DNA from: an uncultured Actinomycetota bacterium
GTDB taxonomy: Bacteria; Actinomycetota; Actinomycetes; Propionibacteriales; Nocardioidaceae
Direction of reading: 5' to 3'
Assembly: GCA_963769755.1 (NCBI GenBank)
Contig: CAVYMY010000001.1
Span: 90,243-154,242 of the forward strand
Length of the DNA: 64,000 nt
Both the position numbers and the translations under genes were made by a program. Below the pieces are notes generated by a model. That model did not search any database and was not told where the DNA came from. It was given only the letters and a program-made list of their open reading frames with translations. This document shows positions 23,360 to 39,129 of this stretch, piece after piece (position 1 is the first letter of the stretch; each line of letters opens with the position of its first letter).

Positions 23360-24601
23360 TCAGACGATCGCCTCGTCGGCGGCGGCCGGCTCGGCGGGTA
23401 CGACGTCCTCGGACTTCATCGACGGTCGGGCGTCGTCGGCGGGGCCGAGGCCGGCGTACGCGCGGGCCATCCGGTTGACGAACTGGTAGACGCCGTCCTC
23501 CTCCGGGGCCATCGGACCGGGGATGGCGTGCGGGCTGGTGAGGCCACGTTGCACCGCCTCGCAGGCCGCCCAGTCCTGGCGGTTGGTGATGTCCCAGAAG
23601 TCCACGGCGTACGACGGGTCGAACCCCTCGCGCTCGGCCACGTGGCGCGGGAACGCCCACGAGCACTCGACGAACGTGCGGTCGGCAGCGAGCGGCCGCA
23701 GCGTGTGGGTCATCACGTAGTCGGGGTGCAGGCTGATCAGCAGGTTCGGGAAGGCCACCAGGTACATCACCGTGCGCAGCTCGACGTCGGTCAGTCCCTC
23801 GATCGCCACGCCACCGCTACGCCCGTCGAGCGACATGGTGTCGGCGTCGGGCACCAGGTCCATCCAGCCCCCCATCCACTCGCCGTCGGGCTCGAGGTTC
23901 TCGCCGCTCTGGGGCGGGCTGACGCGGCACAGCTCGGGGTGGATCGAGGGGCAGTGATAACACTCCTGGTAGTTCTCGGCGATGATCTTCCAGTTCGTCT
24001 CGAGCTCGTAGGAGTGCGACGCGACGGTGACCAGGTCCTCGGGGCGGTAGTTGGCGACGATCTGTTCGAGACCGGCGGCGTGCTCCTCGAACGACCCGCC
24101 CTCACCACTGGGGTCCACGAACACCCAGCCGTGCCACTCCACGACGTTCAGCTCGACCAGGCCGAACTGCGTCTTGTCGAAGTCCGGGAGGTCGCGGAAG
24201 CCGCCGGGAGCGTTGCGCAGCGAGCCATCGAGCTTGTAGTTCCAGCCGTGGTAGGGGCAGACGATCGATCGCTTGCTGACCGACACCCCGCATGCGACGA
24301 GCTCATGACCACGATGGCGGCAGACGTTCGCGAAGGCGCGCAGCGTGCCGTCCTCGCCGCGCACCAGCAGCACTCCGCCGGCGCCGGTCTCGACCGCGGT
24401 CTGGGCGCCGGTCTCGGCGAATCTCTCCCCGCGACCCAGGCACATCCACCCGGAGAAGACGTTGGCCTGCTCCCAGTCGTAGACCGCCGGGTCGACGTAC
24501 GCGAGGCGGGGCAGCATCCGGGAAGTCCCAAAGGGGGCGTACGCCGTCGCCACCTCGTCGGCGGGGAGCGGGGCGACGGTGCCGCGCAACTGATTGAACA
24601 T
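23360..24601 (-). CDS. Rieske non-heme iron oxygenase alpha subunit (GbcA/choline monooxygenase-like)
   Basis: CRHRG...CPYHGW Rieske ligands; ENYQECYHCPSIH mononuclear Fe ligands; QDW.ACE.VQRG. Confidence 0.9.
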   Translation of the reverse strand: MFNQLRGTVAPLPADEVATAYAPFGTSRMLPRLAYVDPAVYDWEQANVFSGWMCLGRGERFAETGAQTAVETGAGGVLLVRGEDGTLRAFANVCRHRGHELVACGVSVSKRSIVCPYHGWNYKLDGSLRNAPGGFRDLPDFDKTQFGLVELNVVEWHGWVFVDPSGEGGSFEEHAAGLEQIVANYRPEDLVTVASHSYELETNWKIIAENYQECYHCPSIHPELCRVSPPQSGENLEPDGEWMGGWMDLVPDADTMSLDGRSGGVAIEGLTDVELRTVMYLVAFPNLLISLHPDYVMTHTLRPLAADRTFVECSWAFPRHVAEREGFDPSYAVDFWDITNRQDWAACEAVQRGLTSPHAIPGPMAPEEDGVYQFVNRMARAYAGLGPADDARPSMKSEDVVPAEPAAADEAIV

Positions 24602-24609
24602 GCAGTCAA
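24594..24609. promoter_or_regulatory. putative TetR/BetI-type operator, copy 1 (overlaps the Rieske gene start codon)
   Basis: TTGAACATGCAGTCAA. Confidence 0.65.
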
Positions 24610-24669
24610 TCCTAGGGTTCGGGGTCGATGGGGTCCAGCGTTGCACGCGCCCGACTTCCCGGCACTCGA

Positions 24670-24685
24670 TTGAACAACCGTTCAA
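24670..24685. promoter_or_regulatory. putative TetR/BetI-type operator, copy 2
   Basis: TTGAACAACCGTTCAA with perfect 6-bp arms, 19 bp upstream of the GcvT-family gene. Confidence 0.65.
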
Positions 24686-24704
24686 CCAGTGGCAGGCTGC
24701 GTCC

Positions 24705-27237
24705 ATGTCGCTCGACTTCACCGCCATCAATCCCTCCGCTGCCCGGGCCGAGGCCGCATCGCCATCTCCCTCCGGTGAGCTCCCGAGCCGGGCGCAGTAC
24801 GTCGTCGTCGGCGGCGGCGTGATCGGGACGTCGATCGCCTATCACCTCGCGCTGCTGGGTGCGACCGACGTGGTGCTCCTGGAGCGCAAGCAGCTCACCT
24901 CGGGCACCACCTGGCACGCCGCGGGAGAGATCGTCTCGGGCGGCACGACGGAGGACGCGCTGTGGATGGCGCGCTACTCCGCCGAGCTCTATGCCCGGCT
25001 CGAGGAGGAGACGGGGCTCTCCACGGGGTTCCGCCAGTGCGGCTACCTCCAGCTGGCCACGACGCCACGCGCCGACGAGAGCCTGCGCCGCGAGACGGCG
25101 TACATGCGCTCGGTGGGGATGGCCAAGGAGGTGCTGTCGCCGCGTGAGGTGGCCGACCTGGTGCCGCTGATGCGCACCGACGACGTCATCCACGGCTTCT
25201 GGACCGCCGACGAGGGACGGGCCAACCCGGTCGACGTGACGATGTCGATGGCCAAGGGTGCCCGGCAGCGAGGCGTGCGGATCTTCGAGAACACCGAGGT
25301 CACCGGCTTCGCCCTCGACCGCGGCAAGGTCGTCGGCGTCCGCACCGAGCGCGGCGACATCGAGTGCGAGAAGGTCGTGCTCGCCGCCGGGCTGTGGGGT
25401 CGCGAGCTGGCGGCCAAGGCGGGTGTCACCGTGCCGCTCCAGGCCGCGGAGCACTACTACCTGCTCACCGAGCCCATCGCCGGAGTCACGCCGGAGTCGG
25501 TGCCGGTGATCGAGGACGGCGAGGCCTACGGCTACTACCGCGAGGAGGGCGGCGGCCTGCTGGTCGGGATGTTCGAGCCGGTCGCGAAGGCCTGGGCCCT
25601 GGACGGTACGCCGCGAGACAGCGCGTTCGCCGTGCTCCCGCCCGACTGGGACCGGATGGGGCCGTTCCTGGAGGTCGCGATGCGGCGCTTCCCGGCGCTA
25701 GAGGACGTCGGGATCCGCACGCTCTTCTGCGGGCCGGAGAGCTTCACCGACGACCTGTCACCGATGCTGGGTGAGTCTCCCGAGGTCGACAACCTCTACC
25801 TCGCCTGCGGTCTGAACTCGGTCGGCATCCTCTCCGGTGGCGGCCTCGGCCACATGATGGCGCAGTGGCTGATCGAGGGGCACCCACCGCTCGACGTCAC
25901 GAGCGTCGGCGTCGACCGGGCGCACGAGTTCCAGGCGACCCGGCAGTTCCGTGAGGAACGCACCGTGCAGCGGCTGGGCTTCCTGCTCAACGACCTGTCC
26001 TGGCCGAACGCCCAGAACCAGCACGCCCGCAACGTGCGCCGGTCGCCGTACCACGCCCAGCACGTCGCCGACGGCGCCCACTTCGTCGCCACCAGCGGCT
26101 GGGAGTACCCCGACTACTTCGCCGGGCCGGGCGTGACTCCGACCGTGGCGTGGGGCTACGCGCGCGGCGAGGCGTTCGAGCGCACCCGCGAGGAGCACCT
26201 GCAGGCCCGCGAGAACCTCGCGATCTTCGACCTGTCGCTGATGTCGCACCACCTCGTGCAGGGGCCCGACGCGATGGCCGTGCTCAACCGGGTCTGCGCC
26301 AACGACGTCGACACCCCGGCCGGGCGGCTCGTCTACACCCAGTGGCTCGACGAACGCGGCGGCATCATCGCCGACGTCACGGTCACCCGGCTGGCCGAGG
26401 ACACCTACGTCGTGATCAGCGGCGACAACATCCACCGCCGGGTGCCGGCCTGGATCCGCCGCCAGACCCGCGAGGCCGAGTTCGTCACGGTCACCGACGT
26501 CACCGGCAGCTACTCGATGCTGTCGGTGCAGGGCCCTAGGTCTCGCGAGCTGCTGCAGCGACTCAGCCCGAACGACTGGTCGGACGCCGCCTTTCCCTAC
26601 CTCACGGCTCAGAAGGTCGAGCTCGGCTACACCCCGCTCTGGGCGTTGCGGGTGACGTACGTCGGTGAGCTGGGCTGGGACCTGATGGTCCCCACCGAGT
26701 TCGGTGCCACGCTCTACGACCAGCTGCGAGAGGCCGGTGCGGAGCTCGGCTCATCCGGGGAGTTCCGCCCCACCGGCGTCGGCGCGCTGGAGACGATGCG
26801 ACTGGAGAAGGCCTTCCGCGACATGGGCCACGACATCGACTCCACGGACACGCCGCTCGAGGCCGGGCTCGGCTTCGCGGTCGCCTGGGACAAGCCCGGC
26901 GGCTTCGTCGGCCGCGACGCGCTGCTCAAGCAGCGCGAGTCCGGTCCGCTGACCAGTCGGCTGGTCAACGTGCTGCTCGACCTCGCCCGACTACGACCTC
27001 TACGGCGACGAGCCGGTCTACTGGGACGGCAAGCCTGTCGGTCACGTCCGCAGCGGCGGTTTCGGCCACTCGCTGGGCGCAGCGTGCGGGATCGCCGGGA
27101 TCGGCCGCGACGAGGGCATCACCGCCGCCGACCTGGGCGCCGGCTCTTTCGAGATCGACGTCGCGGGCACCAGGGTGCCGGCCCAGGTGTCGCTGAAGCC
27201 GTTCTTCGACCCGGCTCGGTCGCGCATCCTCGGCTGA
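24705..27237 (+). CDS. GcvT-family FAD/THF-dependent amine oxidoreductase (dimethylglycine/sarcosine dehydrogenase-like), one frameshift near 26980
   Basis: VVGGGVIG, SGTTWHAAG, GPESFT, GWEYP, FDLS, YVGELGW, MRLEK; the last ~85 aa (DLYGDEPV...PFFDP.R.RI) lie in a second frame. Confidence 0.9.
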
Positions 27238-27256
27238 TCGCGCGACGTCGGCGGGC

Positions 27257-28132
27257 CTACGTCTCGCCGGTGAAGGAGCCGATCGACTCCTTGGTGCCGG
27301 CGCGACGTCCGAGCCACCGGTAGACGAAGAAGCCCAGGGTCACCGCGAGCAGGGCGGCGACGAGCATCAGCGTGGCCAGCGCGTTGAGCGCGGGCGTCGG
27401 CGCCGCGCGAGCGGTCTGGTAGATCTTCACCGACGTCGGCTCGGTGGTGGAGTCGCCCGACAGGTAGCGGACGATCACGAAGTCGTCGATCACGTCGGCG
27501 AAGACCAGGACGGCGCTCGCGACGATCGCCGGCACCAGCATCGGCAGGATCACCCGGCGCTGGGCAGAGATCGGCGACGCGCCGAGATCCATCGCGGCCT
27601 CCTCGAGGTCGGTGCCGATGGTCGCCAGCCGGGCCCGCACGAGGATCGCCGGATAGGACAGCTGGAAGGTCACCAGGCCGATGACCTGCGCGGTCGTGCC
27701 CAGGGTGAACGGCAGGACCAGCTGGGTCACCACCAACAGGAGAGCGACCGCCAGCAGCGTCTCGGGAATCACGAACGACAGCAGCAGCATGGAGTTGGCG
27801 GTGCTCGGCAGCCGGCCGCGCCAGCGGTCCAGCCCGATGGCCAGCGCGACGCCGAGGGGCACGGTGACCAGCGTGGTCAGCACGCCGAGCTTGAGGGTCT
27901 GCACGAGCGCCTGCTGGAGCGCGTCGTCATGCCAGACCGAGCGCAGCGGGTCGCCGTAGTACCAGCGCATCGAGAACCCCTGCCAGCTGGTGCGGGAGCG
28001 CCCGTCGTTGAAGGAGAACAACGCCGCTACCAGCACCGGCAGCAGCGACCAGAGCAGATAGAGGATGGTGACCGCCGCGAGCACCCGGGGCTTGCGCCAC
28101 GGGTCGCGCCACCAGGTGGTCGGCGCCCTCAT
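27257..28132 (-). CDS. polyamine-type ABC transporter permease (PotC-like)
   Basis: FSFNDG, GFS..WY, EEAAMDLGA EAA loop, DDF. Confidence 0.9.
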   Translation of the reverse strand: MRAPTTWWRDPWRKPRVLAAVTILYLLWSLLPVLVAALFSFNDGRSRTSWQGFSMRWYYGDPLRSVWHDDALQQALVQTLKLGVLTTLVTVPLGVALAIGLDRWRGRLPSTANSMLLLSFVIPETLLAVALLLVVTQLVLPFTLGTTAQVIGLVTFQLSYPAILVRARLATIGTDLEEAAMDLGASPISAQRRVILPMLVPAIVASAVLVFADVIDDFVIVRYLSGDSTTEPTSVKIYQTARAAPTPALNALATLMLVAALLAVTLGFFVYRWLGRRAGTKESIGSFTGET

Positions 28133-28142
28133 GGCAGCACCC

Positions 28143-29108
28143 TCATGCCAGGGCTCCGTCGGACCGGGACACCGAGCGGACGTAGTAGAGCATCGGGAGC
28201 AGGGAGACCAGGAGCACCAGCAGCACGAAGGCGCCCGCCTGCCCCGTCTGGCCGGGCGTCAGCACGGTCTCGTTGATCAGGTTGCCGACCATCGAGGTGC
28301 TCGGCGAACCGGACAGCAGGTCGCTGGTGAAGTAGTCGCCGAGCATCGGCAGGCAGGTCAGCAGCACGCTGGCCACCACGATGGGTCGCGACATCGGCAG
28401 GGTGACCCGCCAGAACGCCGAGGCGCGGCTGGCCCCGAGGTCACGCGCGCTCTCCACGAGGTCGGCGGGCAGGCGGTCCAGGCCGGCGTACAACGGGATG
28501 ATCATGTAGGGCACGTAGCCGTAGACGAGTCCGAGGATGACGACCGGACCGTGCCCGGAGAGCCACCTCGTGTCGTCGGGCAGCAGACCGCCGAGCGAGA
28601 TGATGCGGTTGACGAGCCCGTCGTTGGCCAGCAGGTTGACCCAGGCCAGCATCCGCATCATGTAGCTGATCCAGAACGGCGCGATCAGCAGGGTCAGGAG
28701 CAGGCCCCGCCACCGGCCCGCCAGCCGGGCGACGTAGTAGGCGATCGGGAACGCGATGACCAGGCACAGCACGCTCGCGGTGAGGACGAAGACCGCTGTG
28801 CGCAACAACGCGGGCCCGAAGATCCCGTTCTTGCCGGCGATGTGGGACAGGACGTACATCGGCTGGTCGGAGGACCACAGCAGCGGGTTCCACACCGGGA
28901 TGACCGTGCGGAAGACCGGGTCGACGCCACCGAAGACGACGGCCAGCACGACGTAGAGGGGCGCGACGAAGAACAGCGCCAGCCAGGCGATGCCGGGCAG
29001 GGCGAGCAGCGGGCCGAGGGCCCTGCCCCGCCGGCCGCGGCGAGGCGGTGGAGGGGCCGGCTCGACGGGGTCTGGATCCTGGCTGAGCGGGAGGGGCGCC
29101 GCCGTCAC
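28143..29108 (-). CDS. polyamine-type ABC transporter permease (PotB-like)
   Basis: GTG overlaps the SBP stop; APFWISY..R, YVPYMI.PLY, ESARDLGA EAA loop. Confidence 0.9.
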   Translation of the reverse strand: MTAAPLPLSQDPDPVEPAPPPPRRGRRGRALGPLLALPGIAWLALFFVAPLYVVLAVVFGGVDPVFRTVIPVWNPLLWSSDQPMYVLSHIAGKNGIFGPALLRTAVFVLTASVLCLVIAFPIAYYVARLAGRWRGLLLTLLIAPFWISYMMRMLAWVNLLANDGLVNRIISLGGLLPDDTRWLSGHGPVVILGLVYGYVPYMIIPLYAGLDRLPADLVESARDLGASRASAFWRVTLPMSRPIVVASVLLTCLPMLGDYFTSDLLSGSPSTSMVGNLINETVLTPGQTGQAGAFVLLVLLVSLLPMLYYVRSVSRSDGALA

Positions 29109-30352
29109 GCGCCCGCCTTGAACTGCTGCCAGATCTGGTGCCAGGCGGCGTCGTTCTCGACGGTGAGCTCCAGCAGGCGGTAGCCCGTGTCGAACCACTC
29201 CTCGTGAACGGCGGCGGTGGCGAGGTTCTCCGGCAGGAAGCCGTCGGCCACCAGCCGCTGCTCGTCGAGCACCTTCTGCGGCGGCTGGTAGCCGATGTAG
29301 CCGAAGTTCGTGAGGGAGTTCTTCTCGTCGAGCAGGTGCTGGATGAAGAGGTGGGCGAGCACCGGGCTGTTGCCGCCCTTGAGGACCATCATCAGGTCGT
29401 TGTCGACCAGCCCCTTGCCGTCCTCGGGGAACCAGTAGCGCAGGATGTCGGACGACTGGCCCTCGGGCAGGTAGTACTGGGAGTTGACGACGTCGCCCGA
29501 CCACATCTGGGCGATCCCGAGCTGGCCCGACGGCAGGTCGTTGTACATCGACACGGTGACCTTGGGCTTGGTGGCCTCGCTCAGCTCGATCATCTGCTGC
29601 TGGATCACCGCGAGGTCGTCGGCCGAGTCGGTGTTGACGTCGGTCAGGCCGGCCCGGAGCGCGACCATCGCCATCGCGGTGTGCCAGTCGTCGATGACGG
29701 CGACCTTGCTCCGGTAGGACGGGTCCCACAGCGAGTCGTAGGGGTTGGCGAGGCCGGCGATGTCATCGGGCACCAGGTCGTCGCGCCAGCCGATGCCGGT
29801 CGTGTAGATGCTGTAGGGGACCGAGTAGCGCGCCTCGCCGTCGTACCAAGGGTCCTTGAAGGCGTCCCACACGTTGCCGAGGTTGCCGAGGTAGCTGTGG
29901 TTGAGCGGCCGGACCAGGCCCGCGGTCACCAGCCGGGCGATCTGGTCGTAGCTCGGGAAGTAGATGTCGAACGGCACCGCGCCCGTGCGGATCTTGGTGA
30001 TCGCCTCGTCGGTGTCGTTGAAGGTCGAGATCTTGACGTCGACGCCGTACTTCTCCTCGAAGGACTTCACCACCGCAGGGGCGAGGTAGTCGGCGTAGTT
30101 GTAGAGCATCAGTGGCCCGGACTCGGGGTCGAGGCCGTCGGCGATCGGCGGGTTGTCGTCGGCGATCGGCCAGGTGACGGGGTTGTCCGGAGAGGCGATC
30201 TCCAGCTTCTTGCCACCATTGGCGGCGCTGCCCGTCGGAGAGTCCGCGCAGGCCTGCAGCAGGGCGGACAGGGTCGGCACGGAGATGCCCAGCAGCGCGG
30301 CGTTGCGCAGCAACGTACGCCGGTCGAACGCCGGGCCGTCGGCTCGATCCAT
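29105..30352 (-). CDS. spermidine/putrescine-type ABC substrate-binding protein (PotD/PotF-like), Tat lipoprotein
   Basis: FDRRTLL twin-arginine signal and LQAC lipobox; YNYADY, FDIYFPSY, WSGD, PEDG..D. Confidence 0.9.
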   Translation of the reverse strand: MDRADGPAFDRRTLLRNAALLGISVPTLSALLQACADSPTGSAANGGKKLEIASPDNPVTWPIADDNPPIADGLDPESGPLMLYNYADYLAPAVVKSFEEKYGVDVKISTFNDTDEAITKIRTGAVPFDIYFPSYDQIARLVTAGLVRPLNHSYLGNLGNVWDAFKDPWYDGEARYSVPYSIYTTGIGWRDDLVPDDIAGLANPYDSLWDPSYRSKVAVIDDWHTAMAMVALRAGLTDVNTDSADDLAVIQQQMIELSEATKPKVTVSMYNDLPSGQLGIAQMWSGDVVNSQYYLPEGQSSDILRYWFPEDGKGLVDNDLMMVLKGGNSPVLAHLFIQHLLDEKNSLTNFGYIGYQPPQKVLDEQRLVADGFLPENLATAAVHEEWFDTGYRLLELTVENDAAWHQIWQQFKAGA

Positions 30353-30415
30353 GCCCGCCTCCGACGCTTGATTGATGCCGTGGGGTGTTGTCCGTCGGCT
30401 AAACGGTCACATAAA

Positions 30416-30431
30416 CTGAATGCTCAGTCAA
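30416..30431. promoter_or_regulatory. putative TetR/BetI-type operator, copy 3
   Basis: CTGAATGCTCAGTCAA in the divergent SBP/aminotransferase intergenic region. Confidence 0.55.
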
Positions 30432-30475
30432 TCGTGCTCACTCAACAGTTTGGTCTCGAACCGAAAGGTACTCCC

Positions 30476-31858: not shown

Positions 31859-32988
31859 TGCCCGGCGGCGCCCTGAGCCTGGTCTCGCTGACCAAGTCCT
31901 TCGGGGACGTCGTCGCCGTCGACGGCATCGACCTCGACCTGCCGGAAGGTGAGTTCTGCTCGCTGCTCGGTGCGTCGGGCTGCGGCAAGACCACCACGCT
32001 GCGGATGATCGCCGGCTTCGAGCGACCCGACTCGGGCCGGATCATGCTCGACGGGCGCGACCTGGCGCCCGACCCGCCCCATGTGCGGCCGGTCAACACC
32101 GTCTTCCAGAACTACGCGCTCTTCCCGCTGATGACGGTGCGGGAGAACGTCGCCTTCGGCCTGCGCTACCAGGACATCAGCAAGGACGAGACGGACCGTC
32201 GGGTCGGCGAGGCCCTCGAGCTCGCCCGCATCGGCGAGCTGGGGCGCCGACGGCCGGCGCAGCTGTCGGGAGGTCAGCAGCAGCGGGTCGCGCTGGCCCG
32301 GGCGCTGGTGCTCAACCCGCGAGTGCTGCTGCTGGACGAGCCCCTGGGGGCCCTGGACGCACAGCTGCGCAAGCACCTCCAGCTCCAGCTCCGCCAGCTC
32401 CAGCGCGACGTCGGCATCACGTTCGTCTACGTCACCCACGACCAGGAAGAAGCGCTCACCATGAGCGACCGCATCGCGGTGATCGCCGACGGCAAGGTCG
32501 AGCAGGTCGGCTCGCCGGAGGAGATCTATGCGCGTCCGGCGACGGCGTACGTCGCGGGGTTCCTGGGTTCGGCCAACATCTTCGACGCCGAGGTGACCGA
32601 CGTCTCCGGTGAGCTGGCCACCTGCACCGCCCTCGGTCGCACGGTGAGCGCCGAGGCGCACGCCGACGTGCCCCGCGGGCCGGCGGCGATCGTGATCCGA
32701 CCCGAGCGGATCGCCGTCGCCGACGAGGCCGCGCCGGGCCCGGCGGGCCACAACCGACTGACCGGAACCGTGCTCGATGTCGTCTACCTCGGCGCCGCCA
32801 CGCAGGTCCGCGTCGACGTGGGTGACGACAAGGTGCTGCTCGTGCAGGTCGCCAACCAGGCCGGCCCGCGCTCCTTCGCCGCGACCCCGGGCGAACGAGT
32901 GGCCTGCTGGTTCTCCCCGACCGCCGTCCAGGTGCTCAGGCGCAGCGACGCCGCCCTGCCCGATCCGGTCGAGGTCGAGATCGGCTAG
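31858..32988 (+). CDS. polyamine-type ABC transporter ATP-binding subunit (PotA-like)
   Basis: GASGCGKTT, VFQNYALFP, LSGGQQQR, LLDEPLGALD, THDQEEAL, C-terminal TOBE domain. Confidence 0.92.
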   Translation: MPGGALSLVSLTKSFGDVVAVDGIDLDLPEGEFCSLLGASGCGKTTTLRMIAGFERPDSGRIMLDGRDLAPDPPHVRPVNTVFQNYALFPLMTVRENVAFGLRYQDISKDETDRRVGEALELARIGELGRRRPAQLSGGQQQRVALARALVLNPRVLLLDEPLGALDAQLRKHLQLQLRQLQRDVGITFVYVTHDQEEALTMSDRIAVIADGKVEQVGSPEEIYARPATAYVAGFLGSANIFDAEVTDVSGELATCTALGRTVSAEAHADVPRGPAAIVIRPERIAVADEAAPGPAGHNRLTGTVLDVVYLGAATQVRVDVGDDKVLLVQVANQAGPRSFAATPGERVACWFSPTAVQVLRRSDAALPDPVEVEIG

Positions 32989-33394: not shown

Positions 33395-33400
33395 TTCCTC

Positions 33401-34085
33401 TCAGCCTGAGCGCGAAGCAGCCTTGGCGGGCCGGCGGCGGGTGCCCGCGGACTTCGCGCGCCGCTTCCCTGGCTCCAGCCCGAGTCGCTGCTCGGCGTAC
33501 TCCATGGCCATGTCGTGGGCCACGTCGGAGGTGATCTCCTCGTCGCCGAGGGCGACCTGGGTGGCGAGTCCGTCGAGGAGCACGCTGAAGGTCAGGGCGA
33601 AGCGACGGGTGTCGATGCCGCCGACGTCACCGGCCTGCTGGCCGTCCTCGACCACGCGCTCGACCAGGTCGCGCCAGCGGCCGTCGAGCTCGACGCGCGC
33701 CTCGCGGACCTCGGGGTGGCGAAGGGCCGTCGCCCACAGGTCGAGCCAGAGCCCCCAGGCGCCGCTGACCTCGCCGGGCAGCTGGGGCACGCAGGACCAC
33801 TCGACCAGCATCGAGAGCCGCTTGCGGAAGTCGACGACCTCGCCCAGCAAGCCGGGTGGCGGCGTCGTAGAACGCCTCCTCGGAGAACCGCAGTGCGTCG
33901 ACGAGAAGTCGGTCGCGGGTGCCGAAGTAGTAGATGACCAGACCCGAGCTGGTGCCTGCCCGCTTGGCCACGTCGGCGATCCGGGTCTCGCCGAAGCCGC
34001 GCTCGCTGATGAGCTCGGCGGCCGCCTGCAGCATGGCCTGACGACGAGCCTCGTTGCCCTCGGTCGGAGGCGCGGCTTCGGCCAT
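33401..34085 (-). CDS. TetR family regulator (BetI-like), one frameshift near 33852
   Basis: AAAELISERGF..TRIADVAKRAGTSSGLVIYYFGTRD HTH; the C-terminal W.LWLDLW..ALRHP, W..., DGL domain lies in a second frame. Confidence 0.88.
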
Positions 34086-34166
34086 CTCGGTCGTTCTCCA
34101 AACAAGCTCGGCAGCTCGGTCTGTGGCGCTCCGGCCACTTGCCACGGAGGTTATCACCTCGTTAGA

Positions 34167-34182
34167 TTGAACACTCAGTCAA
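34167..34182. promoter_or_regulatory. putative TetR/BetI-type operator, copy 4 (autoregulatory position)
   Basis: TTGAACACTCAGTCAA between the divergent tetR and oxidoreductase genes. Confidence 0.65.
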
Positions 34183-34222
34183 ACACTCTGCGCCGGTGCC
34201 TGCCTTCGGGAGAAGAGCTGCG

Positions 34223-35885
34223 ATGACCAACACCTACGACGCGATCGTGGTCGGCGGCGGCCACAACGGCCTCGTCGCAGCCGCCTATCTCGCCCGCTCC
34301 GGTGCCCGCACCGTGGTGCTCGAAGGGCGAGGCAAGATCGGTGGCGCGGCCACCACCGAGCAGCCGTGGCCCGACGCGCCGCACCTGTCGGTGACCCGGC
34401 TGTCGTACGTCATGAGCCTGATGCCGCCGACCATCGTGGCCGAGCTGGGGCTGGCGCGGTACGGCTACAAGGTCCACCCGATGGGGCCTTACTACCAAGC
34501 CTTCCCCGAGGGCGGCTCGCTGACGATCTACGACGACGACGAGGCGCGCACGTACGACGAGATCGCGCGGTGGTCGAAGAAGGACGCGGAGGCCTGGCCG
34601 AGGTGGAACGCCTGGCTGGCCGGCCTCGCCGAGGTGATGGGCCCGCTGCTCACCCGCGTGCCGCCCACCATCGGCAGCCACTCGCCCTCCGACCTGGCCG
34701 ACCTCGCCAAGCTGGTCGTGGAGCAACCGCGGCGTCGACAAGCGCACCATCGCCGACCTCACCCGGCTGATGAGCATGAGCATCGCCGACCTGCTCGACG
34801 ACTGGTTCGAGTCGCCGCAGGTGAAGGGTGCGATGGCGGTCAACGGCGTGATCGGCACCTGGGCGGGCCCCTACGCGCCGGGGACGGCGTACGTGATGGC
34901 CCACCACTCGATCGGCGACGTGGGCGACGGTTCGGGGCCGGGACATGGGCTGGGCAGCTGGGGATACCCCGAAGGCGGGATGGGCGCGGTCTCGGCGGCG
35001 ATCGGCCGCTCGGCTCAGTCCTTCGGCGCCGAGATCCGCACCAGCGCGAGGGTCGAACGGGTCTGCACTAATGCCGGTCGGGTCACGGGCGTGGTGCTGG
35101 AGGGCGGTGAGGAGCTCACGGCCCCGCTGGTCGTGACCAGCCTGCACCCCAAGATTGCCTTCCTCGAGCACCTGCCGCCGACCGAGCTGCCGGCCGAGTT
35201 CGTCAGCGACATCGAGCGGTGGAACACGCGGTCGGGCGTCGTCAAGATCAACCTGGCGCTCGCGGAGCTGCCGAGCTTCACGGCCGACCCGAGCCGCGAC
35301 ATGGATGGGGGACTGGCCGAGCACCACACGGGCTCGGTGGAGATGGCGCCGTCGATGGAGTTCATCGAGCGCGCCTTCCAGGACGCCCGCGAGGGTCGGG
35401 CTTCGCTGCTGCCGTTCAGCGACGGCGTCATCCCGACGACCCTCGACAAGACGCTCAACCCCGACGGGACGCACATCTTCTCGCTGTTCACCCAGTACGT
35501 CCCGCACGAGTGGAGCGAGGCACCGCACACCGACGAGCTCGAGGCGTACGCCGACCGGCTGATCGACCTCTACGACCAGGTCGCCCCCGGGTTCGCCGCC
35601 TCGATCACCCACCGCGACATCGTCGGCCCGCACGAGATGCAGGAGGAGTACGGGCTGATCGGCGGCAACATCTTCCACGGCGAGCTCACGCCCGACCAGC
35701 TGTTCCACATGCGGCCGGCGCCGGGCTATGCCGACTACCGCACCCCCATCGCCGGCCTCTACAACGCCAGCTCCGCGACCCACGGGGGCGGCGGGGTCTG
35801 CGGCATCCCCGGGTGGCAGGCGGCAAGGGCGGCCATCGCCGACCGCAAGACGCGCTGGCATCGGCTGAGGAGACGCGCTGGTTGA
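34223..35885 (+). CDS. phytoene desaturase-family (PYROXD2-like) FAD oxidoreductase, one frameshift near 34716
   Basis: IVVGGGHNGLVAAAYL, IGGAA.TE, YVMAHH, GGMGAVS, GNIFHGEL, HGGGGV.GIPG. Confidence 0.88.
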
Positions 35886-37951
35886 GGAGGGCCGTCAAGG
35901 CCCGTCACAAAACCAGGCGGACGCTCTTCGCGCCACGCTGGAGGCACGCACAGTCGCGTGCGTGGGCGCCAGCGCGCGGCCGGGGAGCCTCGGCGAGCGG
36001 ATGGTCGGCGAGGTGCTGCGATCGCCGGGGTTCGAGCGGGTCTGGCTGGTGAACCCGTCGTACGACGAGGTCGCCGGGCACCCGTGCCTGCCCGACCTCG
36101 AGGCGGTCGGCGAGGCGCCCGACCTGGTCCTGCTCGGCGTCGGCGACGCCCGGCTCGTCGACCAGCTGACCGCGGCTGCCAAGGTCGGTGCCCGCGGCGC
36201 GGTGGTCTTCGGCAGCGCCCACGACGACGGCGTACGGGAGGAGCTTCGCGCGATCGCCTGCGACGCCGGCCTGGCCTTGGTCGGCGCGGGATGCATGGGG
36301 TTCTGGAACGTACGCCGCGGGCTGCGGGCACTCGGCTACACCGAGCGAGACGACCTGCCCGTCGGTCCGGTGTCGCTGGTGACCCACTCCGGCTCGGTGT
36401 TCTCGACGCTCTTGCGGACCCGCCTGCGCCTCGGGTTCGACCTCGTGATCTCGTCGGGCCAGGAGCTGGTCACCACCACCGCCGACTACGTCGACCACGT
36501 CGTCGACCACACCGACACCCGCGTGCTCGCGCTGGTCCTGGAGGCCGTCCGCGACGGCGCCCACCTGCGCTCCTCGTTGCGGCGCGCCCGCGAGGCCGGC
36601 ATCGAGGTGGTGCTGCTGCCGGTCGGTGGCTCGCCCCTCGGCGCCTCGCTCGTCGCCTCCCACTCCGGTGCGGTAGCGGGCGAGTCGGCGACCTGGGAGG
36701 CGTTGATGGACGACGTGGCCGGCCATCTCGTCGGCGACCTCGCCGAGCTCGGCGACACCCTGGCAGTGCTGGCGTCGCCGCGGCGGCCGCGCCCGGGCAC
36801 CGGCCTGGCGACCGTCCACGACTCGGGCGCCGAGCGCAGCCTGGTGGCCGACCTCGCGCACGAGGCTGGGGTCTGCTTCGCGGAGTTCTCCGAGAGGACC
36901 CGGACGACGCTCGCGAGCCGCCTCGACAACGGTCTCGAGCCCCGCAACCCGCTCGACGTCTGGGGTGGCGGGGCCGACACCCACGGCCTGTTCGGCGACT
37001 GCCTGCGCTGGGTGGCCGCCGATCCCGCAGTCGGCATCACGGCCCTGACCGTCGACCTGGTGCCCGGAGTACGACGGCGACACCTCCTACGTCGACGCCG
37101 TGCTCGACGTCGCGGGCGAGACCGACGGGCCGCTCGTCGTGCTGACCGGTCTGCCGGCCGCGCTGGACGAGGACGCCGCCGACCGGCTCCGGGCTGCGGG
37201 CGTGCCTGTGTTGGAAGGGTTCCGGAGCGGGTTGCTCGCCGTGCGGCACCTGCTCGACGCCGTCGCGCGGCCGGGCCCCGACGCCCTCGACCACCGGCCC
37301 GTCACCGACGCGCAGCCGTTGCTCGCGGCGTACGGCATCGCGACCCCTGAGTCCCGTTCGGCGTCGAGCGAGGCGGGCGTGCTGGCCGCCGCCGAGGTGA
37401 TCGGCTGGCCGGTCGTGCTCAAGACGGCGGCGCCCGGTGTCACCCACCGCAGCGACGTGCAAGGAGTGGTGCTCGACGTGGGCGACGCGGATGCCGCGCT
37501 GGCGGCCTACCGCGACCTCGCCCACCGCCTCGGCACCGACGTGACGGTGCATCGGCAGGTGCCGAGCGGGGTGGAGCTGTCGATCGGACTGGTCCGCGAC
37601 CCAGCCCTCGGCCTCCTTGTCGTCGTCGCGGCGGGGGGCGTGCTGGTGGAGCTGCTGGACGACCGGGCCGTCGCGCTGCCGCCCCTCCCGCCGGCCGGAG
37701 CTCGGCGGATGCTCGACCGGCTCCGCCTGCGGCCGCTGCTCGACGGCTTCCGCGGTGCGCCCGCCGTCGACCTCGACGCGCTGGTCGACGTGGTGGTGGC
37801 CGTGTCGCGGATCGCCCACGAGCATGGTGACGACCTGGATGCCCTGGACCTGAACCCGGTGATCGCGACCGCCAGCGGGGCCGTGGCGGCCGACGTGCTC
37901 GTCGTACCGCGCGCCGACAAGACTGAGGAGGCACCACCGTGCACGGCTTGA
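35878..37951 (+). CDS. NDP-forming acyl-CoA synthetase (acetate--CoA ligase family, fused alpha/beta), one frameshift near 37066
   Basis: VGAS.RPGSLG, VNP, GAGCMG, HSGS, SSGQE, NPLD; ATP-grasp C-terminus PVVLK, HRSDV.GV, DLNP; start uncertain. Confidence 0.85.
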
Positions 37952-39129
37952 CCAATGAGGACCTGGAGATCCGCCGCCGCGCGCGAGCGTTCGTCGACAC
38001 GCTGATCCCCTACGAGGTGGAGGTCGAGCTCGCGGACGGCGTACTGCCGGAGGCGCTCGTCAAGGAGCACCACGAGGAGGCCATCCGCCGCGGCCTCTAC
38101 GCCACCAACATGCCCACGTCTGTCGGCGGGCCGGGCTTCAGCGCACTGCAGCAGGTGCTGGTCCAGGAGCAGGTCGGGCGGGTGACCAACGGGCTCGCCT
38201 GGTGCCTGCACACGCCGCCCCAGTGGTGGGCCGAGGTCGCGACCGAGCAACAGCTGAGCCGGTGGCTGCGGCCGGCCGTGGCGGGGGAGCGGCACGAGTG
38301 TTACGCCATCACCGAGGAGTTCGCCGGCAGTGACGTGAGCGACCTGGCGACGACGGCCCGTCGGGTCGGCGAGGGCACCGACGACGACCACTACGTCGTC
38401 AACGGCACCAAGTGGCACGTCACGTCGTTCAACGTGGCGGACTACTGCTTCGTCCAGGCCGTGCTGACCGAAGGCCCGCACGCGGGTGAGCACGTGCTGC
38501 TCGTCGTCGACCTGCCGACGCCCGGCATCGACGTGGTCCGCACCCCGGCGTACTCCCACCACATCGCCGACGAGCACCCGATCGTGTCGTTCACCGACGT
38601 GCGCGTGCCGGCGTCGCAGCTCGTCGGCGCCGAGGGCGAGGGGATGACCTTCGCCCAGGACTGGTTCCGCTTCGAGCGGGTGATGGTGGCGGCCCGCTGC
38701 GTCGGCGCGTCGGCGCGGCTCGTGGACGAGGCGACTGCCTTTGCGGGGAGTCGGATGGTCGGCGGCCAGCCGCTGGGTGACTACCAGCTCGTCACCGCCA
38801 TGCTCGCCGACTCGGCCACCGAGCTGTTCGCGGCCCGCGCCGCGCTCTACGAGGTCGCCCGCGCCATCGACGCCGGCGAGGACCGCAAGGTCCTCCACGC
38901 CCGCGCCTCGATGGTCAAGCTGCTGTGCTCGGAGATGGCCGGCCGGATCGCCGACCGAGCGGTCCAGGTCTTCGGCGGCCGCGGCTACATGCGCGAGAAC
39001 GTCGCCGAGAGGATGTTTCGCGAGCTGCGCGTCGAGCGCATCTGGGAGGGCGCCAGCGAGCTGCAGCGCCTGATCGTCGGTCAGCAGCTCCTCAAGCGCG
39101 GACCCGCCGCCGTGCTCGGCGACGACTGA
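37939..39129 (+). CDS. acyl-CoA dehydrogenase family protein
   Basis: AITE..AGSD, NGTKW, ER...AA, YQL, ASMVKL, AVQVFGGRGY, RIWEGASE. Confidence 0.92.
   Translation: MHGLTNEDLEIRRRARAFVDTLIPYEVEVELADGVLPEALVKEHHEEAIRRGLYATNMPTSVGGPGFSALQQVLVQEQVGRVTNGLAWCLHTPPQWWAEVATEQQLSRWLRPAVAGERHECYAITEEFAGSDVSDLATTARRVGEGTDDDHYVVNGTKWHVTSFNVADYCFVQAVLTEGPHAGEHVLLVVDLPTPGIDVVRTPAYSHHIADEHPIVSFTDVRVPASQLVGAEGEGMTFAQDWFRFERVMVAARCVGASARLVDEATAFAGSRMVGGQPLGDYQLVTAMLADSATELFAARAALYEVARAIDAGEDRKVLHARASMVKLLCSEMAGRIADRAVQVFGGRGYMRENVAERMFRELRVERIWEGASELQRLIVGQQLLKRGPAAVLGDD

What the first reader, a model, noticed from the sequence alone, without database searches (positions are those of the whole stretch)
23360..39129. 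16-kb catabolic island for an unidentified N-methylated amine, betaine or polyamine
Seen in sequence: a Rieske oxygenase, a GcvT-family FAD/THF amine dehydrogenase, a PotABCD-like importer with a Tat-exported lipoprotein, a GSA-like class III aminotransferase inside the transporter locus, a PYROXD2-like flavoprotein, an NDP-forming acyl-CoA synthetase and an acyl-CoA dehydrogenase. Established: these families perform N-demethylation, transamination, and CoA activation with alpha,beta-dehydrogenation. Inference: the route is uptake, demethylation, deamination, then CoA-dependent oxidation of an omega-amino or betaine acid. It could assign functions to the poorly understood PYROXD2-like and GSA-like families. 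I do not recognise this combination as a described pathway.
Basis: partly seen in the sequence, partly recalled or inferred. Interest (0 to 1): 0.62.

Follow-up and report, generated by a model that had tools for sequence, protein, structure and literature searches.

The report
Conserved methylated-amine breakdown gene island
A soil actinobacterium carries a repressor-controlled set of uptake and enzyme genes, conserved in more than fifty related species including the laboratory model Mycolicibacterium smegmatis, that most likely imports and breaks down a positively charged, N-methylated amine or betaine by a route no published pathway matches.

Summary
Window 23360-39129 encodes a Stc2/GbcA-type Rieske oxygenase, a full-length dimethylglycine-dehydrogenase-like enzyme, a PotABCD-like importer, a GSA-aminomutase-like class III aminotransferase, a BetI-type TetR, a CrtI/PYROXD2-like flavoprotein, an NDP-forming acyl-CoA synthetase (ACD) and an acyl-CoA dehydrogenase.

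The core set recurs next to the aminotransferase in 55 species-level genomes of Actinomycetota. One 18-bp operator marks all three divergent promoters here and lies upstream of the aminotransferase in 51 of 55 relatives.

New points:
- The ACD's closest solved relative is DddX, the ATP/CoA-dependent DMSP lyase. Its phosphohistidine and cation-pi tryptophan are conserved.
- The cluster's usual DAO-type oxidase sits elsewhere in this genome but keeps the operator.
- The DMGDH-like gene is a lineage-specific addition.
- Four genes carry single-base insertions. These are probably assembly errors, because single-copy topA and secD are broken in the same way.

Substrate and step order remain inferred. 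I found no paper describing this pathway. It is testable in M. smegmatis.

The parts
23360..24601 (-). Rieske non-haem-iron oxygenase alpha subunit (413 aa) of the Stc2/HpbB1/CntA/GbcA clade. CRH...CPYH and YHCPSIH motifs are present.
   Evidence: Pfam Rieske and Ring_hydroxyl_A. Best NCBIfam hit is GbcA at 177 bits, against a cut-off of 670. Best PDB hits are 3vca, 4qup, 3n0q and CntA 6y8j. Orthologues of 56-87% identity occur in the relatives' clusters.
24592..24687 (.). Two operator sites in the Rieske|DMGDH divergent promoter: GATTGAACATGCAGTCAATC at 24592, overlapping the Rieske start codon, and GATTGAACAACCGTTCAACC at 24668.
   Evidence: Only 11 sites with 4 or fewer mismatches exist in the 4.47-Mb genome, and four of them are in this island.
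24702..27237 (+). Dimethylglycine-dehydrogenase-like FAD/tetrahydrofolate N-demethylase (about 843 aa). The TWHAAG covalent-flavin His motif is present. The frame is broken by one extra base near 26979.
   Evidence: Pfam DAO, FAO_M and GCV_T. The GCV_T_C-like tail lies in frame 26953-27237. The joined protein aligns end to end with rat and human DMGDH at 432 bits. The insertion is seen against L028. The gene is present in only 3 of 55 related loci.
27257..28132 (-). ABC permease (PotC-like).
   Evidence: Pfam BPD_transp_1. Found in 53 of 55 loci.
28143..29108 (-). ABC permease (PotB-like). Its start is uncertain.
   Evidence: Pfam BPD_transp_1. Frame plot. Found in 53 of 55 loci.
29105..30352 (-). 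PotD/PotF-like solute-binding lipoprotein with a twin-arginine signal (FDRRTLL...LLQAC).
   Evidence: Pfam SBP_bac_8 and SBP_bac_1. PotF and PotD models score far below their cut-offs. Best PDB hits are polyamine-binding proteins. Found in 51 of 55 loci.
30414..30433 (.). Operator site AACTGAATGCTCAGTCAATC in the SBP|aminotransferase divergent promoter.
   Evidence: The same position holds GACTGAACGCTCAGTCAA in M. smegmatis. 51 of 55 loci have a site 350 nt or less upstream of the aminotransferase.
30476..31858 (+). Class III aminotransferase of the glutamate-1-semialdehyde-aminomutase-like branch (460 aa). The Lys in LAKALGGG is present.
   Evidence: Pfam Aminotran_3. It scores below the hemL equivalog cut-off, 325.7 against 527.3. 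PDB hits are GSAM, beta-transaminases and D-phenylglycine aminotransferase. Orthologues of 60-86% identity occur across Actinomycetota.
31858..32988 (+). PotA-like ABC ATPase with a TOBE_2 domain, translationally coupled to the aminotransferase.
   Evidence: Pfam. TIGR01187 potA subfamily scores 384 bits, above its cut-off of 355.6. Found in 48 of 55 loci.
33401..34085 (-). BetI-type TetR repressor. The frame is broken by one extra base at about 33850. The HTH domain reads in the other frame.
   Evidence: Pfam TetR_C_6. The N-terminal HTH is seen on translation. The insertion is seen against four orthologous loci. Found in 44 of 55 loci.
34165..34184 (.). Operator site GATTGAACACTCAGTCAAAC in the TetR|flavoprotein divergent promoter.
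34223..35885 (+). The frame is broken by one extra base at about 34718.
   Evidence: Pfam NAD_binding_8 and Amino_oxidase. Best NCBIfam hit is CrtO at 234 bits, full length but far below the cut-off. The PDB shows only N-terminal similarity to CrtI. Orthologues are 70-84% identical, making it one of the best-conserved cluster enzymes. Insertion.
35878..37951 (+). NDP-forming acyl-CoA synthetase (ACD) of the DddX type. The frame is broken by one extra base at about 37062-37067. No ATG, GTG or TTG lies upstream of the conserved N-terminus; a CTG at 35878 is possible.
   Evidence: Pfam CoA_binding_2, Succ_CoA_lig and ATP-grasp_5. Best PDB hit is DddX 7cm9 at 225 bits, colinear over 632 residues at 27% identity. 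His (AxHSGA) and Trp (NPLDxWG) are conserved in every orthologue in which the motifs were found. Insertion. Start codon problem.
37939..39129 (+). Acyl-CoA dehydrogenase (396 aa) with the catalytic Glu (WEGASE).
   Evidence: Pfam Acyl-CoA_dh_N, _M and _1. Best NCBIfam hits are acryloyl-CoA reductase AcrC (175 bits) and CaiA (139 bits), both below their cut-offs. Orthologues of 55-87% identity occur in the clusters.

Best explanation
The island is the main part of a single-repressor regulon for catabolism of a cationic, N-methylated amine or betaine-type compound. The regulon is conserved across Actinomycetota. The exact substrate is unknown.

Shown by sequence and comparison:
- A PotABCD-like importer, a GSAM-like aminotransferase, a BetI-type TetR, a CrtI/PYROXD2-like flavoprotein, a DddX-type ACD, an ACAD, a Stc2/GbcA-clade Rieske oxygenase and a DAO-type oxidase travel together.
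- They carry one operator.

Inferred mechanism:
1. The lipoprotein-dependent ABC system imports the compound, and the compound or an early product releases the TetR.
2. The ACD uses ATP and CoA to form the thioester of an (alkyl)ammonio-carboxylate, holding the positive charge with its conserved Trp as DddX holds the sulfonium of DMSP.
3. The thioester is processed in one of two ways. It may undergo beta-elimination on the ACD itself, as in DddX. Or the ACAD may desaturate it or perform a C4 elimination, as CaiA and BbuA do.
4. N-methyl groups are removed oxidatively. The enzymes are the Rieske oxygenase, the flavoprotein, the DAO-type oxidase (here on another contig) and, in this lineage, the folate-coupled DMGDH-like enzyme.
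5. The aminotransferase removes the remaining primary amino group.

Candidate substrates are omega-trimethyl- or dimethylammonio acids (beta-alanine betaine, gamma-butyrobetaine, delta-valerobetaine and their partly demethylated forms) or N-methylated di- and polyamines.

The four frame breaks are most likely assembly errors, so the system is probably intact in the organism.
For: - Gene families.
- Synteny in same-genus genomes.
- The complete cluster is in M. smegmatis, in the order Rieske, permease, permease, SBP | AT, ATPase | TetR | flavoprotein, ACD, DAO, ACAD.
- 55 species-level loci carry, within 10 kb of the AT: permeases 53, SBP 51, ATPase 48, TetR 44, ACD 41, flavoprotein 37, Rieske 31, ACAD 25, DAO 19. 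No other family occurs in more than 9 loci.
- In 15 of 15 genomes whose 10-kb flank lacked the Rieske gene, an orthologue of 56-64% identity exists, mostly on the same contig 3-30 kb further on. Four extended loci were read. L109 and L113 show ACD, DAO, ACAD, Rieske. L112 shows DAO, ACAD, Rieske and starts beyond the ACD. L110 shows DAO, ACAD, Rieske.
- Operator: 11 sites with 4 or fewer mismatches in 4.47 Mb. Four are in the three divergent promoters here, one is 5' of the DAO orthologue and one is 5' of a GcvT-like gene. The other five lie in predicted coding sequence. In the related loci there are 373 sites against 12 after shuffling, and 51 of 55 loci have one upstream of the AT.
- ACD and DddX. 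Residue roles are from PMC8163506.
- ACAD-family amine elimination has a precedent in BbuA (PMC8364193).
- Rieske clade. DMGDH.
- Assembly errors: all four breaks are +1 insertions. Stringent frame-break candidates genome-wide are 70 insertion-like against 21 deletion-like. Breaks are clustered, with 4% of 15.8-kb windows holding 3 or more. Single-copy topA and secD are broken.
Against: - There is no experiment and no expression data.
- No aldehyde dehydrogenase, enoyl-CoA hydratase or Rieske reductase is conserved in the cluster, so the pathway cannot be closed on paper.
- The binding protein is of the polyamine (PotD/F) type, not the ProX/OpuAC type usual for betaines.
- The DddX general base Glu432 aligns with Asp next to a gap, and Phe435 aligns with Thr.
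- All specific NCBIfam equivalogs are missed.
- If the insertions are real, four genes including the repressor are pseudogenes in this strain.
Confidence: 0.55

Rival explanations
1. The cluster catabolises an unmethylated polyamine such as spermidine. The aminotransferase makes an amino-aldehyde. The flavoprotein oxidises this, or its cyclic iminium, to an N-(carboxyalkyl)amine such as putreanine or isoputreanine. The DddX-type ACD forms the CoA ester and eliminates the amine to give acryloyl-CoA, which the ACAD handles. The oxygenase and oxidases cleave secondary-amine C-N bonds rather than N-methyl groups.
For: - The binding protein and ATPase are of the PotD/F and PotA type.
- The aminotransferase is tied to the transporter in 55 of 55 loci.
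- The flavoprotein and ACD genes are adjacent, and no aldehyde dehydrogenase is conserved in the cluster.
- The best ACAD model is acryloyl-CoA reductase.
- DddX-type beta-elimination chemistry is established.
Against: - The Rieske protein belongs to the clade of N-methyl and quaternary-amine oxygenases.
- This genome adds a folate-coupled DMGDH-like enzyme to the regulon, and every family member I know of handles one-carbon units.
- A flavoprotein oxidising an aldehyde or iminium at this step is conjecture.
Confidence: 0.17
2. The Rieske oxygenase, the DMGDH-like enzyme and the DAO-type oxidase are simply the glycine betaine to dimethylglycine to sarcosine to glycine route. The transporter, aminotransferase, ACD and ACAD feed a precursor such as gamma-butyrobetaine or carnitine into glycine betaine, or are unrelated neighbours.
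For: - The best NCBIfam model for the Rieske protein is GbcA.
- The DMGDH-like protein aligns full length with DMGDH and DMGO.
- The DAO orthologue here lies beside a locus with choline dehydrogenase, an OpuA-type transporter, a second DMGDH-like gene and EtfAB.
- The repressor is BetI-type.
Against: - The GbcA score is 177 against a cut-off of 670.
- The DMGDH-like gene is in only 3 of 55 clusters.
- The aminotransferase, ACD and flavoprotein are the most constant members and share the operator, so they are not bystanders.
- Glycine needs no transaminase.
- The genome has a separate betaine-type transporter locus.
Confidence: 0.12
3. The ACD is an actinobacterial DMSP (sulfonium) lyase, and the island deals with DMSP or a related sulfonium compound.
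For: - DddX is the closest solved relative, and His292 and Trp391 are conserved.
- A DddX-like enzyme with only about 23% identity still cleaves DMSP (PMC13543886).
- The DddX paper notes actinobacteria that make DMS but lack known lyases.
Against: - The aminotransferase, N-demethylase-type enzymes and polyamine-type binding protein have no role in DMSP breakdown.
- The hosts are soil Actinomycetota.
- No dddB, dddC or BCCT-type neighbours were found.
Confidence: 0.05
4. In this strain the island is a decaying remnant. The four frameshifts are real, and the repressor and three enzymes are pseudogenes.
For: - There are four frame breaks in 15.8 kb. Under the same detection criteria the genome-wide rate predicts about 0.65-1.2.
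- The ACD also lacks a canonical start codon.
Against: - All four breaks are single-base insertions with otherwise 74-90% nucleotide identity to intact orthologues.
- GC3 coding signal continues across each break.
- The genome shows an insertion-biased, clustered excess of breaks.
- Single-copy topA and secD are broken too. From my own knowledge topA is essential in actinobacteria, so such breaks cannot all be real.
Confidence: 0.08

Closest known systems
DddX, the ATP- and CoA-dependent DMSP lyase of the acyl-CoA synthetase (ADP-forming) superfamily (Psychrobacter sp. D2; PDB 7CM9; PMC8163506)
   Same: It is the best solved relative of the island's ACD: 225 bits, colinear over 632 residues, with the same domain order. 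The phosphohistidine (His292) and the cation-pi Trp391 (NPLDxWG) are conserved in every orthologue in which the motifs were found. An acidic E[YF]DGD motif sits at the position of the general base.
   Different: Identity is only 27%. Glu432 aligns with Asp beside a gap, and Phe435 with Thr. The gene context is entirely different: no BCCT, dddB or dddC, but an aminotransferase, N-demethylase-type enzymes and a PotD/F-type importer. The hosts are soil actinobacteria. Activity is untested.
Betaine N-demethylation routes. Proline and hydroxyproline betaine: a Rieske demethylase (Stc2/HpbB1) followed by a flavin demethylase. Glycine betaine: GbcAB or BmoAB, then DMGDH or DgcAB, then sarcosine oxidase.
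   Same: The Rieske oxygenase is from the same clade (PDB 3vca, 4qup, 6y8j). It is followed by DAO-type and DMGDH-type flavoenzymes. The repressor is BetI-type with a palindromic operator.
   Different: All equivalog cut-offs are missed. There is no adjacent reductase. The binding protein is polyamine-type rather than ProX-type. The aminotransferase, ACD, ACAD and CrtI-like flavoprotein have no counterpart in those routes.
CoA-dependent carnitine and gamma-butyrobetaine chemistry: CaiA, CaiB, CaiC and CaiD of enterobacteria, and the bbu cluster of Emergencia timonensis, in which the ACAD-like BbuA eliminates trimethylamine from gamma-butyrobetainyl-CoA (PMC8364193)
   Same: An onium acid is first made into a CoA thioester and then handled by an ACAD-family flavoenzyme. 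The island's ACAD matches the CaiA model at 139 bits.
   Different: Activation here is by an ACD rather than a CoA transferase or an AMP-forming ligase. The ACAD is below every specific cut-off, and I could not compare it with BbuA. Those pathways are anaerobic and lack oxygenase, aminotransferase and N-demethylases.
PotABCD and PotFGHI polyamine importers with SpuC or PatA-type transaminases
   Same: The importer has four components and the ATPase meets the potA subfamily model. The binding protein's best structures are polyamine-binding proteins. A class III aminotransferase is co-transcribed with the transporter ATPase.
   Different: The binding protein is far below the PotD and PotF cut-offs (72 and 61 bits against 636 and 582). 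The aminotransferase is GSAM-like, not SpuC or PatA-like (131 bits against 612 for PatA). No aminobutyraldehyde dehydrogenase is present.

Membership tests
DddX-type ACD (CoA-dependent onium lyase) | ACD architecture CoA_binding, Succ_CoA_lig, ATP-grasp in one colinear chain | tested here: met
   Pfam. Colinear alignment of query residues 13-644 with 7cm9 residues 77-734. The reading frame has to be joined across one extra base.
DddX-type ACD (CoA-dependent onium lyase) | Phosphohistidine His292 on the swinging loop | tested here: met
   ASHSGAVAG aligns with ANAHSGALAG. The motif AxHSGAxxG was found in 20 orthologue pieces. The residue's role is from PMC8163506.
DddX-type ACD (CoA-dependent onium lyase) | Trp391 making a cation-pi contact with the onium group | tested here: met
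   NPLDVWG aligns with NPLDIWG. Trp is present in all 35 orthologue pieces that contain an NPxDxxG motif. The 3-hydroxypropionate-CoA ligase has NPADVGG at this position.
DddX-type ACD (CoA-dependent onium lyase) | General base Glu432 and second aromatic residue Phe435 | tested here: inconclusive
   HMMER aligns Asp with Glu432 and Thr with Phe435, next to gaps. The motif E[YF]DGD is conserved in 27 of the 29 orthologue pieces where a motif was found. It supplies acidic and aromatic residues, but register is uncertain.
DddX-type ACD (CoA-dependent onium lyase) | Cleaves DMSP to DMS and acryloyl-CoA | not testable with these tools
   This needs an enzyme assay.
Glycine betaine monooxygenase GbcA/BmoA | Scores above the NCBIfam equivalog cut-off (NF058607) | tested here: not met
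   177 bits against a cut-off of 670.
Glycine betaine monooxygenase GbcA/BmoA | Adjacent GbcB/BmoB-type flavin/[2Fe-2S] reductase | tested here: not met
   No Fer2-domain gene lies on contig C1. No reductase family is conserved in the 55 loci.
Stc2/HpbB1/CntA clade of Rieske amine oxygenases | Rieske CxH...CxxH motif, a mononuclear-iron His pair, and closest similarity to clade members | tested here: met
   The motifs were read in the translation. The top PDB hits are 3vca, 4qup, 3n0q and 6y8j at 129-154 bits, against 73 bits or less for aromatic-ring dioxygenases.
Dimethylglycine dehydrogenase / DMGO family | DAO, FAO_M, GCV_T and GCV_T_C domains in one chain, with the covalent-FAD His | tested here: met
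   Pfam. The C-terminal tail lies in the second frame. End-to-end alignment with 4pab, 5l46 and 1pj5. TWHAAG is present. The substrate was not tested.
PotABCD/PotFGHI polyamine importer | Binding protein reaches the PotD or PotF equivalog score | tested here: not met
   72 and 61 bits against cut-offs of 636 and 582. The ATPase does reach the potA subfamily cut-off (384 against 355.6).
Glutamate-1-semialdehyde 2,1-aminomutase (HemL) | Scores above the TIGR00713 equivalog cut-off | tested here: not met
   325.7 bits against 527.3. The catabolic context is conserved.
PYROXD2 / CrtI-family flavoprotein | Membership of the CrtI family (TIGR02734) or the CrtO equivalog | tested here: not met
   76 bits against 238, and 234 bits against 1000. 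The similarity to the CrtO model does run full length.
PYROXD2 / CrtI-family flavoprotein | Specific similarity to animal PYROXD2 | not testable with these tools
   No PYROXD2 model, structure or sequence is in the libraries offered. The human genetic link of PYROXD2 to N6,N6-dimethyllysine derivatives and trimethylamine is from PMC13352909.
BetI-type TetR repressor | TetR HTH domain, TetR_C_6 ligand domain, and a palindromic operator in its own divergent promoter | tested here: met
   TetR_C_6 at E = 1.6e-19. The HTH is seen in the other frame. Operator sites. The ligand is untested.

The most novel reading that the evidence does not exclude
The DddX-type ACD, with or without the ACAD, is an aerobic CoA-dependent C-N lyase system for (methyl)ammonio acids, the nitrogen counterpart of DddX and BbuA. 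The highly conserved CrtI/PYROXD2-like flavoprotein is an N-methyl-amine dehydrogenase. Together with the Rieske oxygenase, the DAO-type oxidase and the aminotransferase they form an undescribed pathway, widespread in soil Actinomycetota. Working it out would give the orphan PYROXD2 family its first biochemical function.
Probability: 0.25. Interest if true: 0.8.

Novelty: new variant of a known kind. Interest (0 to 1): 0.62.

Why it matters
- The cluster is not a one-off. The same eleven or so genes and the same operator recur in at least 55 species-level genomes of soil Actinomycetota, so an abundant natural amine or betaine is probably being consumed by a route nobody has described.
- The cluster is present in Mycolicibacterium smegmatis, so growth, induction, knockout and enzyme tests are immediately feasible.
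- It would extend DddX-type CoA-dependent onium cleavage from sulfur to nitrogen compounds and from marine to soil bacteria.
- It could assign functions to two poorly understood groups. One is the GSAM-like catabolic transaminases.
- The other is the CrtI/PYROXD2-like flavoproteins. Their human member is genetically tied to methylated-lysine derivatives and trimethylamine but has no known reaction.

Tried and rejected
- Exact look-up of the window's aminotransferase in the contig index found nothing.
Neither co-induction nor the four insertions could be checked against reads.
- I split relatives into a 'full' and a 'minimal' cluster lacking Rieske, DAO and ACAD. That was an artefact of the 10-kb flank. 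All 15 such genomes have the Rieske orthologue. Four extended loci were read: two show ACD, DAO, ACAD and Rieske, and two show DAO, ACAD and Rieske.
- The 69-aa and 313-aa genes after the ACAD in M. smegmatis looked like a possible ferredoxin and reductase pair. The small one is a membrane peptide, and the other has only a 34% unlinked homologue here.
- The paralogous Rieske gene on contig C10 is not a GbcA either. It sits with a Dpp-type transporter and an MSOX-like oxidase.
- My first frameshift detector gave many false positives at true gene junctions and had to be tightened.
- Attempts to find the MSMEG locus tags or any expression data for the M. smegmatis cluster failed.
- Searches for 5YKR, PYROXD2 in bacteria, beta-alanine betaine, trimethyllysine and butyrobetaine found no paper describing this gene set.
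- No specific equivalog model fits any enzyme, so the substrate cannot be named from sequence.

Full report
**1. What is in the window**

The window is about 70% G+C. I called genes from third-position GC, from a small seven-state frame model, and from Pfam and NCBIfam scans. Between 23360 and 39129 the genes are:
- A Rieske/Ring_hydroxyl_A oxygenase (-).
- Divergent from it, a DAO-FAO_M-GCV_T protein (+).
- Convergent with that, permease-permease-SBP_bac_8 (-).
- Divergent from the SBP, a class III aminotransferase and a PotA-like ATPase with a TOBE domain (+). Their stop and start overlap.
- A 406-bp repeat-filled gap.
- A BetI-type TetR (-).
- Divergent from the TetR, a CrtI/amine-oxidase-fold flavoprotein, an NDP-forming acyl-CoA synthetase (ACD) and an acyl-CoA dehydrogenase (+).

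The flanks are unrelated: a UvrD-like helicase on the left and SnoaL-like and AAA_33 genes on the right. The catalytic motifs can be read in the translations:
- Rieske CRH...CPYH and YHCPSIH.
- TWHAAG in the DMGDH-like protein.
- Lys in LAKALGGG of the aminotransferase.
- WEGASE in the ACAD.

**2. Frame breaks**

Four genes change frame once each: the DMGDH-like gene, the TetR, the flavoprotein and the ACD.
- Against orthologous DNA from one to five relatives, depending on the site, each break is a single extra base in the window. The positions are about 26979, 33850, 34718 and 37062-37067, within otherwise 74-90% identical sequence.
- Genome-wide, the same detector finds 185-450 candidate breaks depending on stringency. 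With the strictest rule, 70 are insertion-like and 21 deletion-like, although ordinary same-strand gene junctions are 798 to 1064.
- The breaks are clustered. About 4% of 15.8-kb windows hold three or more.
- Joined translations across three sampled breaks match topoisomerase I, SecD and a thiolase continuously. topA exists only once in the genome, split between two frames.
- From my own knowledge, topA is essential in actinobacteria. Many close relatives in the collection are long-read soil MAGs. I therefore read the four breaks as consensus errors (about 85%), not decay.
- The ACD also has no ATG, GTG or TTG upstream of its conserved N-terminus. Either a CTG at 35878 is used or there is a further error.

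**3. Is the grouping real?**

Yes.
- Three same-genus genomes (handles G005, G012, G013) keep Rieske, transporter, AT, ATPase, TetR, ACD and ACAD together.
- The aminotransferase has 74-86% identical orthologues in Nocardioides and Mycolicibacterium.
- In M. smegmatis the order is Rieske, permease, permease, SBP | AT, ATPase | TetR | flavoprotein, ACD, DAO(-), ACAD.
- A scan of species-representative genomes returned 80 loci. They come from Nocardioides, Mycolicibacterium, Streptosporangiaceae, Acidimicrobiia, Solirubrobacterales and one Acidobacteriota MAG.
- In the 55 loci with full 10-kb flanks the counts are: permeases 53, SBP 51, ATPase 48, TetR 44, ACD 41, flavoprotein 37, Rieske 31, ACAD 25, DAO 19, DMGDH 3.
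- Unsupervised clustering of all predicted proteins gave no other family in more than 9 loci.
- The apparent 'minimal' clusters were a flank artefact. All 15 such genomes have a 56-64% Rieske orthologue, usually 3-30 kb beyond the locus end. Four extended loci were read. L109 and L113 show ACD, DAO, ACAD, Rieske; L110 and L112 show DAO, ACAD, Rieske. A glutathione peroxidase or a DUF861-like cupin is sometimes interposed.

The conserved unit is therefore: importer (four genes), aminotransferase, TetR, flavoprotein, ACD, DAO-type oxidase, ACAD and Rieske oxygenase.

**4. One operator, one regulon**

An earlier first-reader note pointed to a repeated BetI-like operator, and I tested it.
- The three divergent promoters hold four related 20-mers, at 24592, 24668, 30414 and 34165.
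- In the whole 4.47-Mb genome only 11 sites lie within four mismatches of GATTGAACANNCAGTCAATC. Four are these.
- One is 5' of a gene on contig C12 that is the 62-73% orthologue of the cluster DAO of other genomes.
- One is 37 nt 5' of a stand-alone GcvT-like gene on contig C2.
- The other five lie in predicted coding sequence.
- In the related loci the motif GAYTGAACNNYCAGTCAA (three or fewer mismatches) occurs 373 times against 12 after shuffling. It lies within 350 nt upstream of the aminotransferase in 51 of 55 loci.
- In M. smegmatis it marks the Rieske, SBP|AT, TetR|flavoprotein and DAO|ACAD promoters.

Co-regulation is thus strongly predicted, though not measured. In this genome the DAO gene has moved. 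It now lies next to a locus with choline dehydrogenase, an OpuA-type transporter, a second DMGDH-like gene and EtfAB. A DMGDH-like gene has been added beside the Rieske gene.

**5. What the parts resemble**

- Rieske oxygenase. Its best structures are Stc2 (3vca), the demethylase 4qup, 3n0q and carnitine oxygenase CntA, at 129-154 bits. Aromatic-ring dioxygenases score 73 bits or less. The GbcA equivalog is missed, 177 against 670.
- DMGDH-like protein. It aligns over its full length with rat and human DMGDH (432 bits) and Arthrobacter DMGO.
- Aminotransferase. It is GSAM-like but below the hemL cut-off. It also resembles beta-transaminases and D-phenylglycine aminotransferase.
- Binding protein. 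It is a distant PotD/F relative.
- Flavoprotein. It aligns full length but weakly with CrtO. Its orthologues are 70-84% identical.
- ACAD. It is generic, with AcrC and CaiA as its best models, both sub-threshold.
- ACD. This is the most informative result, and the lead came from an earlier agent's note. The best solved relative is DddX, the ATP/CoA-dependent DMSP lyase, at 225 bits over 632 colinear residues (27% identity, 53% similarity). The ADP-forming hydroxy-acid-CoA ligases score 164 and 152 bits, and their domain order is permuted relative to the query.
  - The DddX paper assigns His292 as the phosphohistidine, Trp391 and Phe435 as cation-pi partners of the sulfonium, and Glu432 as the base (PMC8163506).
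  - His and Trp are conserved here and in every orthologue in which the motifs were found.
  - An E[YF]DGD motif lies at the base position, but the alignment there is gapped.
  - A Roseobacter enzyme with only about 23% identity to DddX still cleaves DMSP (PMC13543886).
  - An ACAD-family enzyme, BbuA, eliminates trimethylamine from gamma-butyrobetainyl-CoA (PMC8364193).

**6. Most likely mechanism**

Shown: linkage, shared operator, family assignments and conservation of the onium-binding Trp.

Inferred: a cationic compound carrying one or more N-methyl groups and, at some stage, a carboxylate and a primary amine is imported. Three kinds of chemistry then act on it, in an order I cannot fix:
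- The DddX-type ACD thioesterifies it. Either beta-elimination follows, or the ACAD processes the thioester.
- The Rieske oxygenase, the flavoprotein and the DAO or DMGDH-like enzymes (the latter folate-coupled) demethylate it oxidatively.
- The aminotransferase removes the primary amino group.

The flavoprotein and ACD genes are adjacent in every locus examined, and no aldehyde dehydrogenase is conserved. The flavoprotein may therefore supply the ACD's substrate or act on its product. No Rieske reductase is linked, so a shared cellular reductase must serve.

Rivals are an unmethylated-polyamine route through carboxyalkyl-amines, a glycine-betaine route with add-ons, DMSP cleavage, and a dead island in this strain. 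Each is weighed in the rival section.

**7. Comparison with the known, and novelty**

The system borrows from three known routes. These are betaine N-demethylation (Stc2/HpbB1/GbcA plus flavin demethylases), CoA-dependent onium cleavage (DddX; CaiABCD and BbuA) and polyamine uptake with transamination. It is a member of none:
- Every specific equivalog threshold is missed.
- The transporter type is unusual for betaines.
- No described pathway combines these enzymes.

Full-text searches found nothing describing it. The library lacks most subscription journals, so a miss is not proof.

Human PYROXD2 is genetically tied to N2-acetyl-N6,N6-dimethyllysine and trimethylamine levels (PMC13352909). 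I could not test whether the flavoprotein here is a true PYROXD2 relative.

I rate the finding a new variant of a known kind: a betaine or amine catabolic regulon with an undescribed enzyme logic. Interest is moderately high because it is widespread and directly testable in M. smegmatis.

Noticed in passing
window 32989-33394: The gap between the convergent ATPase and TetR genes holds four 98%-identical tandem copies of a 73-bp unit (33048-33340). They are framed by inverted-repeat arms (GGGGTTGTGCCCC...CACGGGGAGGGGCCCC and its complement). Function unknown.
   Followed up: partly
whole genome (G000), e.g. C12:140874-140881 (topA) and C8:~34161 (secD): The assembly holds on the order of a hundred or more single-base frame breaks. 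They are 77% insertion-like and clustered, and they include single-copy topoisomerase I and SecD. Any pseudogene call in this genome needs read-level confirmation.
   Followed up: yes
G000 contig C12:383587-395274 (outside the window): A second amine locus lies on one strand: GMC choline dehydrogenase, OpuA-type betaine ABC transporter, a second DMGDH-like gene, EtfB and EtfA. Next comes the orthologue of the cluster's DAO-type oxidase, preceded by the island's operator (GACTGAACGTTCAGTCAATG at 384830).
   Followed up: partly
G000 contig C2:111271-112430 (outside the window): A stand-alone GcvT-like aminomethyltransferase gene has an operator-like site (ACTTGAACGGTCAGTCAAAC, 4 mismatches) 37 nt upstream. 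It may be a folate-binding partner within the same regulon.
   Followed up: no
G000 contig C10:526606-534789 (outside the window): A paralogous Rieske oxygenase (41% identical) lies in an operon with a Dpp-type peptide/opine ABC transporter and a monomeric-sarcosine-oxidase-like flavoenzyme. This looks like a second, different N-demethylation cluster.
   Followed up: no
loci L109:8386-8937, L113:8167-8805, L110:8518-8925; L113:11359-11874, L110:14035-14436: In the three extended loci L109, L110 and L113 the cluster carries a glutathione peroxidase gene between the Rieske and ACAD genes. In L110 and L113 a DUF861-like cupin follows the DAO gene. This hints that the pathway's oxidases release peroxide.
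   Followed up: no
window 35869-35962: The ACD reading frame has no ATG, GTG or TTG upstream of its conserved N-terminal CoA-binding strand. The only candidate is a CTG at 35878, overlapping the flavoprotein stop. A further assembly error is also possible.
   Followed up: partly
G000 contig C8:~44874-46101 (outside the window): A further DMGDH/GcvT-type gene also shows a frame break. Contig C8 has the highest break density (24 per 100 kb).
   Followed up: no
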